Below, piece after piece: positions 8,479 through 57,642 of a stretch of DNA of 64,000 nt (position 1 is the first letter of the stretch; each line of letters opens with the position of its first letter). Under the pieces are notes generated by a model, which was given only the letters and a program-made list of their open reading frames with translations, had not been told where the DNA came from and made no database searches. This stretch comes from Octopus vulgaris (lineage: Eukaryota), in the NCBI GenBank assembly GCA_951406725.2, contig OX597819.1, positions 100,006,001 to 100,070,000 on the forward strand. Direction: 5' to 3'. Position numbers and translations under genes: made by a program.

Positions 8479-8529
<51 letters not shown>

Positions 8530-8916
8530 CATAAAAAATGACAACAAAAGAATGAGAGCTCGATATTACGTAAAGAGAGGATTTTTTATATTTATAGTTT
8601 AGGACAATCAGTAATTTGCCATAGTACGCAGAATTTCAAATGCCGGAGCAAAGAGCTACGATGCATTTACGTCGGCTATTAATGGTAACAGACGCTATGA
8701 AAAACCGTTGAATAAAAGGGACGTTACTCTATCAAGTAGAAAAAATATAGAAGATAAAAGATACACGCAACCATATTCTCACAATGCATACGCATAAAAC
8801 CTCCTGCGTTCATAATGTCTACATACGTATGCACTAGCACATACACACACAACCATATATGTGCATGCATGTACTCATTTATATAAATGTAACCACACAC
8901 ACACACGCACCCATGT

Positions 8917-8959
<43 letters not shown>

Positions 8960-9074
8960 TGTGCACGCAAATTCATCCTCATATACACAAAGGTGTCATA
9001 TTGCATATTTGCATACATACATACATACATACATACATACATACATACACACACACATACATACACACACACAT

Positions 9075-9138
<64 letters not shown>

Positions 9139-9139
9139 G

Positions 9140-10552
9140 AGTGAATTCGTATTTCTCTCCAAGTTTACTATATTAAAGGTCACTTCGGATGAGTAAGGGG
9201 GCGTGAACCAGATAATTTTCCTGTCTATGTTTTCTTTTCTTTATTTCTGGCCTAATAGCAGGTGTGTAAGCTATTTCCTCTTTAAATCTACTAGCTTTAA
9301 GGGTTTTCTTATATAGTGGGGAAGTATTATTAAATATGTTTATATTGGAGGAGAGGCTAAAAATTCTCCTACTAATATTCTTAAACATTACGAGGTGCGT
9401 GGAAGTCTATCGTTGGGCTTTCTATAGGGGTTGTAAATATACTTTTGCAAATCCAGAGATACGTCAAGAAATTAACAACCGTCAAGCTGGTATCTATTGT
9501 TATGCTATTGTGTTTTCATAAGGTGAATAATATCCTTTCTTAATTGATTTTGCGCTGCTCCACTGGTATTCTTAACTAAAGCTAGAGTATCATCTCTATA
9601 AATAGCGAAATATAGACCAGGAAAAGCTTTTCCTTACGTGTCAAGCAAGAATAGCCCAATGAGATTGCATATGCCCGCTCCATCATAGGACCCGATGCTC
9701 ACATCGAAAGCACCCTCCGTGTCAGCCGTCTTAGCCCACTCAGTGTTCTTGCTGAAGAGTAAGGTCTTTCTAACGTGGAGGATTATATACTTATCTTGTT
9801 CACTAATCTCTGTAAAATCGCTTGGGAGTTTTCTAGAAATAGATGCGTAGAAATCTACAATATCAAATTGTGTAAATCTTGCTTTATTCTTATTTCTAAT
9901 TGCTTTAAACCAGCTATCAACTTCTATTGTACTAAATTAGTTTGCCCCTCTAACTTTAGCATCGATTTTTCTTAAAATTTCCTTACTAATTATACAAATT
10001 CCTGATTTTGCGGGGTTAATTAGTTTGCACTTAGGATCAGATAGGAAGTTCTTTTTATGGTCCTTAATAGTTATAAGGGCTTCTTCTTTTGGAAGGATCT
10101 CTATTTTTTTTTTTATCTAGCTGAAACCTAGCGTTATAAACATGTGGTCTGGCTTTAGTGTAATTACTAATAACATTGTTATGTAGGAGTTGCGAGTATG
10201 TGCTGTTGTCAACAAGGTATAAGTTCTCGGTTTTATCAGAAAAAAGTGGCGTTTTTTGGCACTTTTTGTGTTTTTGTCTTTTTTCTGTTTCTGTTGAAAG
10301 GTTTTAAAGGACTTACCAAAATTGATTTTGTTTATAGGCTTCAGTAGATCTGTTTTGAAGTCGTTTAAGTCTGTTATTTTGGGAGAGAATTTCTTAGATT
10401 TAATTTCATGGTATATGTTCTCTGTGATAAACTTTTCATTGTTGTACTTGAAGGGCTTCTATCTCATACGTTTAATAAGATCCGTAATTTTCTCCAGTAG
10501 TTTCTTAGAGTATAGTTCCCTGGATGATATAGGTATGATTTTCATTGAATAA
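9140..10552 (-). mobile_element. Penelope-like element, decayed N-terminus plus RT ORF (3' truncated before GIY-YIG)
   Basis: Minus-strand motifs YSMKIIP...LIKRMR*K, KDHKKNFLSDPKCKLINPAKS, FDIVDFYASIS, FDVSIGSYDGAGIC, NISRRIFSLSSNINIF and RKIIWFTPPYS are characteristic of Penelope/Poseidon-type RTs. Confidence 0.9.
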
Positions 10553-11460
10553 TCGAAGAGTCCTATCACATTCCATTTTGCTTTCATTTGTTGTCGGAAT
10601 CCCCTTCTGTTGGCTTCACTCATGAGCCAGCATTCCATTACTGTTCGGTTTGCCTCCCTATCCCACTTTCTTCCCAGCCTCTAGCTTTGTGCACAAGCAG
10701 TCTCTGGATGACGATTGGGCCTTCGCTGCTCAACCACAGGGCACCTGCCGGGCAAAAGTCTTTCATCTTTGTTTCCAGCCTCATCAATACTGTTACTTGA
10801 TACATTAGTATTATACATTTTCACTCAACACTGAGGTTTGTGTTTTAAGGTTAGCCACGGACCGGTATTTTATCGAGACACACCATCTCTAGTAAGATTG
10901 TCAACCAAGACTTCAGACCCCTTACTTCCCTTTGCATTTCTGTGTGTTATGGACCATGGGCATGATTTTCTCTAGAAGACAGATGAACATCAGTTATTCC
11001 TGTAACTTCATCCAAATATTGCTCCGGAGTTAAGACCCGATTCATGGTTCATTCGCCTTCAACACTGACAGGCTGTCGCCCCTATGACTAAGAAGTCCTA
11101 TTTACTCCAGTTTTTAAATCAGAGTGTCCCTTCTAGACAGACTCCCAACCAAGTCTCATGGGTTCTCTCTATCCGTTTTCAGAATGGTCATTCACTCTTC
11201 TGAGTTCCTCAGCCCTTTGCTGGGCTTTGCTTTTAATTCCTCAGAGTGTCGATAATCCACCCTCCTCACCAAGCAAGCTTACTGAGGTTGACAGTTTAGT
11301 CGTAGAGGACTTGACGATTTCACAACGCCTCTTGTTAATCATTCTGGATTATTATTTACTTATTCACTATTGTAATTCTACTGTTATTACAATAATCCTT
11401 ACCTAATTATTTACTTGTTTTACTATTATAGTTTCACTATTATTACTATAATTATATTAT
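10553..11460 (-). mobile_element. R4/Dong-clade LINE 5' UTR plus N-terminal coding fragment
   Basis: Aligns by eye with 44870-45487. ATG at 10818 gives ...RKWDREANRTVMECWLMSEANRRGFRQQMKAKWNVIGLF, the R4/Dong N-terminal motif. Confidence 0.85.
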
Positions 11461-11697
11461 TACTCTAAGACCTAGAGGTCCTAACATTGTGTCCCTTGAT
11501 TTCTTTAGACAACAAATGATGGCAGATTTACGGCTATTGATTTAGCTACTAATGTTGCTGCGGCGTTAAATGGGAGGGCGGGCATGTTGTGTCTATTAAT
11601 ACAGGCTGTTTGACTGGACTGGAAGTTGACAGGTCTGGCAGTGGATTGGGGGTAACTGGGTGGCGGCTTTTGAGAGGAGCGACGATAAGGTGGACAT

Positions 11698-12022
11698 TAA
11701 AGACTCCGCCGGTTACGACGACGAGGGTCCCAGCTGATACGATCAACGGAACAGCTTGCTCGTGAAATTAACGTGCAAATGGCTGAGCATTCCACAGACA
11801 CGTGTACCCTTAACGTAGTTCTCGGGGATAATCAGCGTGACACAGAGAGTGACAAGGCTGACCCTTTGAAATACAAGTACAACTCATTTTTGCCAGCTGA
11901 GTGGACTGGAGCAACGTGAAATAAAGTGTCTTGCTCAAGGACACAACGCGTCGCCGGGAATCGAACTCACAACCTTACGATCATGAGCCGAATGCCCTAA
12001 CCACTAAGCCACGCGCCCTCAC
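11698..12022 (-). mobile_element. Full-length tRNA-derived SINE family C with 12-bp TSD
   Basis: Minus strand has A box TGGCTTAGTGG, B box GAGTTCGATTCCC and TGTGTCCTTGAGCAAGACACTT. Flanked by direct repeat TAAGGTGGACAT at 11686-11697 and 12023-12034. Confidence 0.93.
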
Positions 12023-12319
12023 TAAGGTGGACATAGCATTGCAAAGATACAGAAATCTATTTACGACAAAGGAATCTATCTATGGAACATCACGTCGTAG
12101 TTAAGATATAAGAATCTATAAATGTTTCAAAGTTTTAGCAAACATATAGGCAATTCTCTAGAAAATATCTCAAATCTTTGAATCACTCACAATAATATTT
12201 CATAGTTTGAAGTAAGAGAAAAAATGGCTTACACATATTTGAGGAGCCGTTAAATAGCCATCCTATCATCGTGGCTGCTTACAGCAGTACTGAAGACCGA
12301 GTTGTCGTCGTCGTCGTCG

Positions 12320-12356
<37 letters not shown>

Positions 12357-32744: not shown

Positions 32745-33075
32745 TATCTGAGTGTTTAGAGTGTCGGAATCACAATCATGAGGTAGTTAGTTCGATTCCC
32801 GGACCGGGCTATGTGTTGTGTTCTTCAGCAAGACACTTTATTTCACGTTACTCCAATTCACTCAGCTGTAAAAAATGAAATGTGACGTCACTGGTGCCAA
32901 GCTGTATCAGCCTTGGCCTTTCCCTTGAGTAACATCAGTGGCGTGTGGAGAGGAGGCTGGTATGCATGGTCGACTTTTGTCTTTCATAAATAACCTTGCC
33001 AGACTTGTGCCTCGGAGGGAAACTTTCCAGGAACAATCTATGATCATTCATGGCCGAAAGGGGACTTTTTTTTAC
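32745..33075 (+). mobile_element. tRNA-derived SINE with family C head and a different 3' half
   Basis: AGTTCGATTCCCGG...TGTGTTCTTCAGCAAGACACTTTATTTCACGTTACTCCAATTCACTCAGCTG is shared with the 11698 element. Sequence after ~32880 is unrelated to that copy. Confidence 0.8.
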
Positions 33076-43489: not shown

Positions 43490-44095
43490 AAATTATCAAG
43501 TACTCTACCAAGCCAATATTGTGAAAAATGGAGTAGATCCAAAGTGCCGATTCTGAAATGATGAGATTGAAACAGTGGACCACCTAATCTCTGGATGTTA
43601 AGTTATAGCACCAGTGGAGTATAAATCAAGACATGACAGAGTTGAACAGTATCTACACTGATAAATATGTCGGCAATGTAAAACTAAATTTGTTGCCAAG
43701 TAGTACAAACATCACCCTGAGGCTGTAACTCGGGGAGAAATATAATGATTCTTTGGAACTTTCCAGTACATGGAAACAGAACGATCAAAGCTAGAAAATC
43801 GGATATCTTTGTGAAAGACCAAAACAGTAAAGTCTTTTTGTTGATAGACAAAAGTATTCTTCGTGATCCTATTATCTCGAGAAAGAATTTGGCAAGCTCA
43901 GAAAATATAGAGATTTGTGATCGAAATCGAAAAACTTGTGGCTTCTCAAGGCGGTTGTAATATCAGTGATTGTGAGACCTCTTGGAATGATCGGAAAGGG
44001 AACCGGAAATTATTTGAGAATGATCCCTGGCTTACCATCCATGCAAGAAGCGCAAAAGAATGTTTCGACGTTACGAGGACGATTACAACTCATGT
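43490..44095 (+). mobile_element. R4/Dong-type CCHC plus restriction-like endonuclease fragment
   Basis: DPKCRF*NDEIETVDHLISGC...YKSRHDRV, ILWNFPVHGNRTIKARKSDIFVKD and KLRKYRDL. Confidence 0.85.
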
Positions 44096-44249
44096 AAATT
44101 TCTACGTTTTGTTTTCTTTATTTTTTACGTTCACATAACTTGACTTTGTAAATGAACAATTCCTTTGCACTATCTGTCGAGAAGGCTTTCGGCAAGAAAT
44201 GGAAACAAATTTTAAAAACAGTCTCATAATAGTAATAATAATAATGGTC

Positions 44250-44725: not shown

Positions 44726-44779
44726 CAAAGGTCTTATAGTAATAGTATAAGTATTGTTATAATTGTGAAACTATAGTAG

Positions 44780-47954
<3,175 letters not shown>

Positions 47955-57380: not shown

Positions 57381-57642
57381 GGCAGGGGGTGGTGGTGAAC
57401 CCTGCTGAACTCTTTCACCATAACTTTCTCTCGCTCTTTCTTCCTGTTTCTCTTGTACCTACATTTCAAAGAGCCAGCCTTGTCACATTCTGTGTGTCAC
57501 GCTGAATCTCTTCGAGAACTACGTTAAGGGTACACGTGTCTGTGGAGTGCTCAGCCACTTGCACGTTAATATCACGAGCAAGCTGTTCCGTTGATCGTAT
57601 CAGCTGGGACCCTCATCGTCGCAACCGACGGAGTGCCCCTAT
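57381..57642 (+). mobile_element. TSD-flanked retroposed fragment sharing the family C 3' half but lacking the tRNA head
   Basis: CTATTATTACTTGC occurs at 57367-57380 and 57643-57656. Positions ~57453-57635 match the reverse complement of ~11703-11882. Confidence 0.88.

What the first reader, a model, noticed from the sequence alone, without database searches (positions are those of the whole stretch)
9140..11460. In-frame chimera: R4/Dong LINE 5' end fused to the start of a Penelope-like RT ORF
Seen in sequence: on the minus strand, a Dong-type 5' UTR and ATG (10818) run into Penelope-like sequence without a frameshift: ...RRGFRQQMKAKWNVIGLF|DYSMKIIPISSRELYSKKLLEKITDLIKRMR*K. The sister Dong copy at ~45480 reads GGACTCTTCGA-AACAAGT, while this locus reads GGACTCTTCGA-TTATTCAATG, placing the switch at 10552/10553. 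Established: YS.K.IP...LIKRMRWK is the N-terminal motif of this Penelope group, and Penelope-like elements normally rely on an upstream pseudo-LTR for their 5' end. Inference: either a one-off microhomology deletion or template switch, or a hybrid family in which a Penelope RT borrowed a LINE 5' UTR and N-terminal domain. This copy is dead (stops on both sides of the junction), and being in frame has a 1-in-3 chance probability.
Basis: partly seen in the sequence, partly recalled or inferred. Interest (0 to 1): 0.75.

Follow-up and report, generated by a model that had tools for sequence, protein, structure and literature searches.

The report
One-off LINE–Penelope junction, not hybrid family
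Two dead jumping genes of different kinds are joined at one spot in this genome, most likely by a chance DNA deletion at four shared letters; no second copy was found, so it is ordinary genome debris rather than a new hybrid element.

Summary
The junction is real but single. On the minus strand the 5' end of an old R4/Dong-type LINE (12300-10553, longer than stated) meets a Hydra-clade Penelope-like element (10556-8528) at a shared TCGA (4 nt, not TTCGA), in frame. Contigs of two samples from two studies bridge it, so it is not a misassembly. Five genome-wide searches found it only here, while parent patterns hit 71 and 20 places; 0 of 99 other LINE copies run into the Penelope element, and 0 of 35 Penelope starts have LINE sequence upstream. 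The Penelope family has its own ATG six codons upstream (29 of 35), so it needs no borrowed 5' end. The join cuts the LINE's predicted three-helix domain before helix 3; the Penelope part has stops, frameshifts and no endonuclease. Six other LINE copies break within 25 nt of the same site; 2 of 6 coding joins there are in frame, as chance predicts. Likely a microhomology deletion between neighbouring insertions; a microhomology Penelope/LINE 5' junction is already described in a rotifer. The scan's earlier notes held no look-alike. Low interest.

The parts
12301..12356 (.). (ACA)n(ACG)n microsatellite, 5' flank of the LINE
   Evidence: sequence; two other 5'-truncated copies start after (AAT)n-type arrays (L084, L094)
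12023..12300 (-). LINE 5' UTR, first part (a truncated unit of the family's 5' monomer repeat)
   Evidence: matches lie 5' of the same UTR in 13 or more of 24 other loci; monomers of about 390-435 bp in 5 of 6 loci tested
11698..12022 (-). SINE-like repeat inserted later into the LINE UTR, 12-bp duplication at 12034-12023 and 11697-11686
   Evidence: ARAGORN finds no tRNA gene; the label SINE is my inference
10819..11697 (-). LINE 5' UTR, second part
   Evidence: 73-78% to L016, L026, L027 over 1.1-1.2 kb
10553..10818 (-). First 88 codons of the R4/Dong-type ORF from its own ATG; premature TAG at 10683; holds helices 1-2 of a predicted three-helix (Myb/SANT-like) domain, helix 3 lost
   Evidence: 57 of 120 protein relatives match this N-terminus; 238/266 nt equal to sister majority; model and fold search
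10553..10556 (-). TCGA microhomology, the junction
   Evidence: bridged by contigs of runs X1 and X4
9164..10556 (-). Hydra-clade Penelope-like ORF remnant from codon 6/7 to about residue 503 of 708 (RT and thumb); stops, frameshifts, five deletions of 12-30 nt
   Evidence: DKT at 10237, RWK broken by TAG at 10461
9138..9163 (-). 26-nt filler at a second break that removed about 950 nt (linker, GIY-YIG endonuclease, start of 3' UTR)
   Evidence: source of filler not found
8528..9137 (-). Penelope 3' UTR / pseudo-LTR segment, microsatellite-rich, with a decayed hammerhead-like core at about 8676-8630
   Evidence: same segment lies about 100-140 nt upstream of the ORF start in several tandem sisters and 950 nt after the break in L034
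8480..8527 (.). (TA)n 3' flank, the Hydra target type
   Evidence: PMC8557442 section 11
44729..47700 (+). Sister R4/Dong-type LINE copy used as comparison (not part of the junction locus)

Best explanation
This is a single dead locus where the 5' end of an R4/Dong-type LINE is joined to a Hydra-type Penelope-like element at a shared TCGA, most likely by a genomic deletion between two neighbouring, separately inserted copies. Shown: both parents, the 4-nt overlap, the uniqueness, the reality in independent samples, the absence of the LINE's 3' part nearby, and each outer end sitting in a microsatellite (trinucleotide at the LINE end, (TA)n at the Penelope end). Inferred: the LINE inserted in the trinucleotide array and the Penelope element downstream in (TA)n; a break was then repaired by end joining at TCGA, removing about 3 kb or less of remaining LINE, any spacer, and the Penelope leader and first five codons. 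The frame was kept by chance (TTC GAA and ATC GAT carry TCGA in the same codon phase). Both parts then decayed neutrally to about 9-10% from their families. It does nothing now (inferred).
For: Unique: 1 place for a 23-nt junction pattern with up to 2 mismatches and a 28-nt one with up to 3, against 71 and 20 places for parent patterns; 1 of 40 scored places spans a 200-nt probe, 1 of 40 a 1,011-nt probe; junction peptide scores 154.5 bits here, 68.5 next, among 150 scored, and five long low-score rows proved to be pure parents. 0 of 99 other listed LINE copies continue into the Penelope element; 0 of 35 Penelope starts have LINE upstream, 29 of 35 have their own ATG. No LINE remainder in the window's 8.5 kb downstream or 50 kb beyond. 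Deletions are the norm: this copy has five of 12-30 nt plus loss of the endonuclease; 1 of 10 LINE copies with enough sequence reaches its C-terminus without a large jump. Six other LINE copies break 0-25 nt after the same site, 1 of 5 coding joins in frame. Microhomology deletions disabling Penelope copies are described (PMC3846280, passages).
Against: The unrearranged state was not seen: no listed contig from organisms B, C or D shows the ancestral arrangement. The two parts are about equally diverged (89.5% and 91.4% to majority), so their order is not resolved. The 5' flank is (ACA)n rather than the (TAA)n reported for Dong, preceded by a short (GTAT)n. The clustering of LINE breaks at this site (6 of 99 against roughly 1.3-2 expected, P 0.002-0.017, rough background) hints at a reverse-transcription effect, which would favour the template-switch rival. 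DNA and protein searches score only the best 40 or 150 candidates.
Confidence: 0.65

Rival explanations
1. Insertion-time join: the Penelope element primed at (TA)n, was copied almost to its 5' end, and its cDNA end annealed by TCGA to the upstream LINE DNA, deleting the target DNA in between. Same product, one step earlier; still a one-off.
For: Precedent: Pen2_Av inserted into a non-LTR element without target duplication and with a microhomology 5' junction (PMC3846280, passage). Several sisters are 5'-truncated within 15-130 nt of the ATG and join (TA)n, inverted pieces or foreign DNA (L034, L037, L038, L042, L054). The Penelope 3' end is intact at (TA)n.
Against: Needs loss of the whole LINE remainder at insertion (none within 58 kb); cannot be told from a later deletion with one locus.
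Confidence: 0.18
2. RNA template switch: a reverse transcriptase copied the Hydra RNA from its 3' end to codon 6, jumped to a Dong RNA at TCGA and finished at the LINE 5' UTR, so the chimera entered the genome in one event and never spread.
For: Polarity fits (Penelope 3' end, LINE 5' end); 4-nt overlap; five other copies join the same LINE zone to the LINE's own 3' part, as template jumps would.
Against: One insertion should leave one target type on both sides; the flanks differ, (ACA)n and (TA)n. Needs two unrelated RNAs at one priming site. Genomic deletions are abundant here.
Confidence: 0.12
3. Low-copy hybrid family: a Hydra RT/endonuclease expressed from a Dong 5' UTR and ATG that once moved as a unit.
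For: In-frame join from the LINE's own ATG; both flanking stops are CAG or TGG in most sisters (13 of 15; 8 of 10), so the frame was probably open when joined.
Against: No second copy. A 28-nt pattern would find a copy 10% diverged with probability 0.76 and 15% diverged with 0.47. 0 of 29 public protein hits of the junction peptide carry the Hydra motifs. The LINE domain is cut before helix 3. Hydra elements carry their own start.
Confidence: 0.02
4. Assembly artefact joining two repeats.
For: Repeat-rich region; no long reads were available to me.
Against: Contigs of X1 (10461-10598) and X4 (10417-10598), different samples and studies, cross the junction with 1 difference each and 42 nt or more on both sides; at most one can be the assembly's source.
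Confidence: 0.01

Closest known systems
Pen2_Av insertion into a non-LTR retrotransposon in Adineta vaga, and microhomology-mediated deletions in Penelope copies (PMC3846280; passages read)
   Same: Penelope-like element joined at its 5' side to a non-LTR element through microhomology, no target duplication, single locus
   Different: There a partial tandem with an intact ORF sits inside the LINE; here the LINE 3' part, the Penelope leader and the endonuclease are gone, and the join happens to be in frame
Hydra clade of Penelope-like elements, including Hydra-1_Obim (PMC8557442; section 11, passages, supplement rows and protein seen)
   Same: Under 3 kb, single ORF, RWK, DKT, CxCX5C linker, C-terminal GIY-YIG, (TA)n target; Hydra-1_Obim begins with Met at the same distance before the YS.K.IP motif as the sisters here (by eye)
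   Different: This is a different, decayed family copy; no tree was built; this copy lacks codons 1-5 and residues 504-708
R4/Dong clade LINEs (PMC7998251; passages read)
   Same: Single ORF with RT and C-terminal CCHC plus REL endonuclease, diverged N-terminal Myb/SANT-like domain, microsatellite target
   Different: Only the 5' UTR and 88 codons are present here; the family's 5' UTR has tandem monomers, which I did not look up in print

Membership tests
Hydra-clade PLE (3' part) | RWK motif near N-terminus | tested here: met
   TGG in 8 of 10 sisters; this copy has TAG
Hydra-clade PLE (3' part) | DKG modified to DKT | tested here: met
   GAT AAA ACC at 10237 and in sisters
Hydra-clade PLE (3' part) | CxCX5C linker; CxxC and CxH beside conserved E and N | tested here: met
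   in sisters L042 and L106/L110/L111; deleted in this copy
Hydra-clade PLE (3' part) | C-terminal GIY-YIG endonuclease | tested here: inconclusive
   Pfam GIY-YIG at residues 594-623 of the intact relative L110, E 0.013, below cut-off; absent from this copy
Hydra-clade PLE (3' part) | Under 3 kb, single ORF | tested here: met
   related family (about 69% DNA identity) has 2,585 and 2,579-bp units with a 708-aa ORF
Hydra-clade PLE (3' part) | Insertion into (TA)n | tested here: met
   3' flank here; 5' flanks of L034, L038, L042
Hydra-clade PLE (3' part) | Canonical hammerhead ribozyme in the pseudo-LTR | tested here: inconclusive
   core motif with stem II in L019, L039, L056, L105, L117, L118; decayed here; none among the 150 Rfam rows shown of 270; cleavage not testable
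Hydra-clade PLE (3' part) | Placement in the Hydra clade on an RT tree | not tested
   only by-eye comparison with the published Hydra-1_Obim protein
R4/Dong LINE (5' part) | Non-LTR RT in a single long ORF | tested here: met
   RVT_1 E 3.5e-18 in sister L069; relatives of 1,100-1,200 aa
R4/Dong LINE (5' part) | C-terminal CCHC and REL (PD..D) endonuclease | tested here: met
   56 of 56 and 50 of 56 full-length relatives; C-terminal piece in L077
R4/Dong LINE (5' part) | N-terminal diverged Myb/SANT-like domain without zinc fingers | tested here: inconclusive
   confident helices 2-15, 22-33, 40-53; many Myb/SANT/trihelix rows at Z 4.5-5.7, all under 8; Foldseek none
R4/Dong LINE (5' part) | (TAA)n microsatellite target | tested here: inconclusive
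   sister ends in (AAT)n near 47750, L084 and L094 start after such arrays; this copy starts after (ACA)n
R4/Dong LINE (5' part) | Placement with named Dong/R4 elements on an RT tree | not tested
   no named reference sequence came from a tool
Hybrid LINE-PLE family | Same junction at two or more loci with different flanks | tested here: not met
Hybrid LINE-PLE family | Open fusion ORF with whole domains | tested here: not met
   stops, frameshifts, lost endonuclease, cut helix bundle

The most novel reading that the evidence does not exclude
The chimera was made in one reverse-transcription event: the enzyme jumped from a Hydra Penelope RNA to a Dong LINE RNA at a recurrent landing zone just after the GLF codons, the same 25-nt zone where six other LINE copies break. 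It would be a fossil of template switching between two orders of retroelement, and would mark a jump hot spot in the Dong RNA.
Probability: 0.12. Interest if true: 0.5.

Novelty: new member of a known kind. Interest (0 to 1): 0.14.

Why it matters
As read here it matters little: it is one more broken join among decayed retroelements. It would matter if it had spread, because a Penelope RT driven by a LINE 5' end would be a route for domain and promoter exchange between retroelement orders; the evidence is against that. The residual point of use is the apparent clustering of breaks at one site of the Dong family, which could be a handle on how R4/Dong reverse transcription makes internally deleted copies.

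Tried and rejected
Nested insertion of the Penelope element into the LINE: no LINE remainder downstream within 58 kb. TTCGA microhomology: only TCGA is shared. Rfam scan for the hammerhead: swamped by microsatellite hits; one of three folds used wrong coordinates (L118) and is ignored. Word-indexed protein searches with the LINE N-terminus and the junction peptide found nothing (weak). Foldseek gave no match. No RNA holder listed, no evidence either way. No bridging contig among listed pieces for organisms B, C, D (lists are cut and depth is low). The empirical power figure 397 of 399 is inflated because those sisters were picked by likeness, so I quote the binomial figures. Literature: five full-text searches listed no LINE-Penelope hybrid family; the octopus repeat paper PMC13282606 has 0 hits for 'chimer', 'Hydra', 'nested' (passages only). 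Earlier scan notes: none by words, sequence or nearby place; 8 of 198 shown genome-wide, none on this junction.

Full report
Observation. The minus-strand frame from ATG 10818 runs from LINE-like into Penelope-like sequence without a shift. The window's other LINE copy (44729-47700, +) matches up to 10553 and no further. A 200-nt probe centred on the join, searched in the 2.8-Gb own genome, gave 40 scored places of 394 candidates: the locus itself over the full length, 20 places matching only the LINE half (ending at probe base 98-100) and 19 matching only the Penelope half (starting at base 97-101). Lined up, 17 LINE sisters read ...GGACTCTTCGA|AACAAG or close variants and 12 Penelope sisters read ...ATCGA|TTA(T/C)TC. 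The overlap is therefore TCGA, 10556-10553. An overlap of 4 nt or more is expected in 2.3% of random joins at this base composition.

Is it real? Contigs of run X1 (10461-10598) and run X4 (10417-10598), two samples from two studies of organism A, cross the join with one difference each. One may be the assembly's source, the other is independent. These are short-read contigs, not long reads. Runs of organisms B, C and D showed only parent-type pieces ending at 10553 or 10556 among the listed records; the lists are cut, so this is no proof of absence.

The two parents. 5' part: the LINE homology runs from 12300, not 11460; a SINE-like repeat with a 12-bp duplication interrupts it at 12022-11698. 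Sisters hold an RT (Pfam RVT_1, E 3.5e-18). Their protein relatives are single ORFs of about 1,130-1,160 aa; 56 of 56 full-length ones have a C-terminal CCHC, 50 of 56 a PD..D motif, and 57 of 120 match the window's 88 residues, several from their own first Met. This fits R4/Dong as described in PMC7998251 (passages), which also reports a diverged Myb/SANT-like N-terminal domain. A model of a sister's domain has helices 2-15, 22-33, 40-53 and 58-73 at pLDDT above 90, with weak Myb/SANT/trihelix matches (Z 4.5-5.7; inconclusive alone). The join falls after residue 36, before helix 3, so no whole domain was borrowed (helix 3 as recognition helix is recalled knowledge). 3' part: sisters and an intact related family show RWK, DKT, CxCX5C, CxxC/CxH, a weak C-terminal GIY-YIG hit, 2.58-kb units and (TA)n flanks, the features of the Hydra clade (PMC8557442 section 11). 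Its supplement lists a Hydra family from an octopus whose protein starts with Met at the same place (by eye). The window's copy covers residues 7-503 of 708, has five deletions of 12-30 nt and small indels, lost about 950 nt with the endonuclease at 9164, resumes in the 3' UTR and ends at 8528 in (TA)n. No trees were built.

Family or one-off? A 23-nt junction pattern (up to 2 mismatches) and a 28-nt one (up to 3) each hit only this locus; parent patterns hit 71 and 20 places. The 28-nt search would find a given copy 10% diverged with probability 0.76 and miss five such copies with probability 0.0007; at 15% the figures are 0.47 and 0.04. A 1,011-nt probe (40 of 735 scored) and the 73-residue junction peptide (150 of 1,148 scored; 154.5 bits here, 68.5 next) again span only here; five rows with long weak coverage were fetched and are pure parents. 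A census from the LINE side found 113 places, 100 listed: the window, 56 that continue as LINE, 7 seen in earlier loci and 36 newly fetched; none of the 99 continues into the Penelope element; 13 were not listed and some copies are segmental duplicates. From the other side, none of 35 distinct Penelope starts has LINE sequence in up to 1,200 nt upstream and 29 have an ATG 16 nt before the TCGA position. In 1.84 billion public protein representatives the junction peptide found 29 proteins, all through the LINE half; none has the Hydra motifs.

The frame. Both stops beside the join are sense codons in most sisters (CAG in 13 of 15; TGG in 8 of 10), so the fusion was probably open when made; that is the one point for the hybrid idea. 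But six other LINE copies break 0-25 nt after the same site (L030, L109, L134, L141, L147, L155). Five join the LINE's own 3' part: one in frame, four not. With the window that is 2 of 6, as one in three predicts. L109 was picked partly for its odd alignment, and the background of about 1.3-2 breaks per 100 copies per 30 nt is rough, so the clustering (P 0.002-0.017) is a hint only.

Mechanism. No LINE remainder follows the Penelope element within 8.5 kb of window and 50 kb beyond, so it is not a simple nested insertion. The outer ends lie in different microsatellites, (ACA)n at the LINE end and (TA)n at the Penelope end, which favours two insertions and a later end-joining deletion (0.65). 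Joining at the time of Penelope insertion gives the same product and has a precedent in a rotifer (PMC3846280, passages) (0.18). An RNA template switch fits the polarity and the break cluster but not the flanks (0.12). The parts are equally old (89.5% and 91.4% to sister majority), which does not order the events. Splicing was rejected on sequence. Hybrid family 0.02, artefact 0.01.

Papers seen: PMC8557442 (passages, section 11, supplement rows and alignment text); PMC7998251, PMC3774820, PMC3846280, PMC13282606 (passages); others only as search listings, none of which showed a LINE-Penelope hybrid family. That the genome is cephalopod-like is my inference from size and repeat content.

Verdict. 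Observation confirmed; hybrid reading not supported; an ordinary one-off junction between two dead retroelements. Interest 0.14.

Noticed in passing
L030, L109, L134, L141, L147, L155 and window 10553: Seven of 100 listed copies of this Dong-type family break within 25 nt after the GLF codons; five join the element's own 3' part. A public protein (P0121) is a tandem of the same N-terminal 83 residues, cut at about the same place. Possible hot spot, unexplained.
   Followed up: partly
L081, L091, L101, L102, L103; window 12300-12023: The LINE's 5' UTR begins with tandem monomers of about 390-435 bp (up to 97.7% alike in L102), reminiscent of rodent L1 promoters (recalled).
   Followed up: partly
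L110 (G000:C1:57.21 Mb), L106, L111: A young, intact Hydra-type family: 708-aa ORF, 2.58-kb units in head-to-tail tandem, many open 717-codon frames on C1; its hammerhead-like core reads CCGAAGAG rather than CTGA.
   Followed up: partly
window 9163-9138: 26-nt filler at the endonuclease deletion; no source found among fetched loci.
   Followed up: partly
window 12022-11698: SINE-like insertion with a 12-bp target duplication inside the LINE 5' UTR; related copies at about 57453-57634 and 32775-32878.
   Followed up: partly
L070, L072, L073 (G000:C1:206.08 and 215.9-216.6 Mb): Near-identical LINE fragments lie beside open frames of up to 550 aa that end in a macro-domain-like motif (label recalled); looks like a duplicated gene cluster.
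   Followed up: no
window 43500-44100: 3' piece (CCHC and REL region) of another R4-like LINE just upstream of the sister copy.
   Followed up: no
P0122: A 728-aa public protein with four copies of the Dong-type three-helix domain and no RT motif seen; possibly a domesticated or repeated fragment.
   Followed up: no
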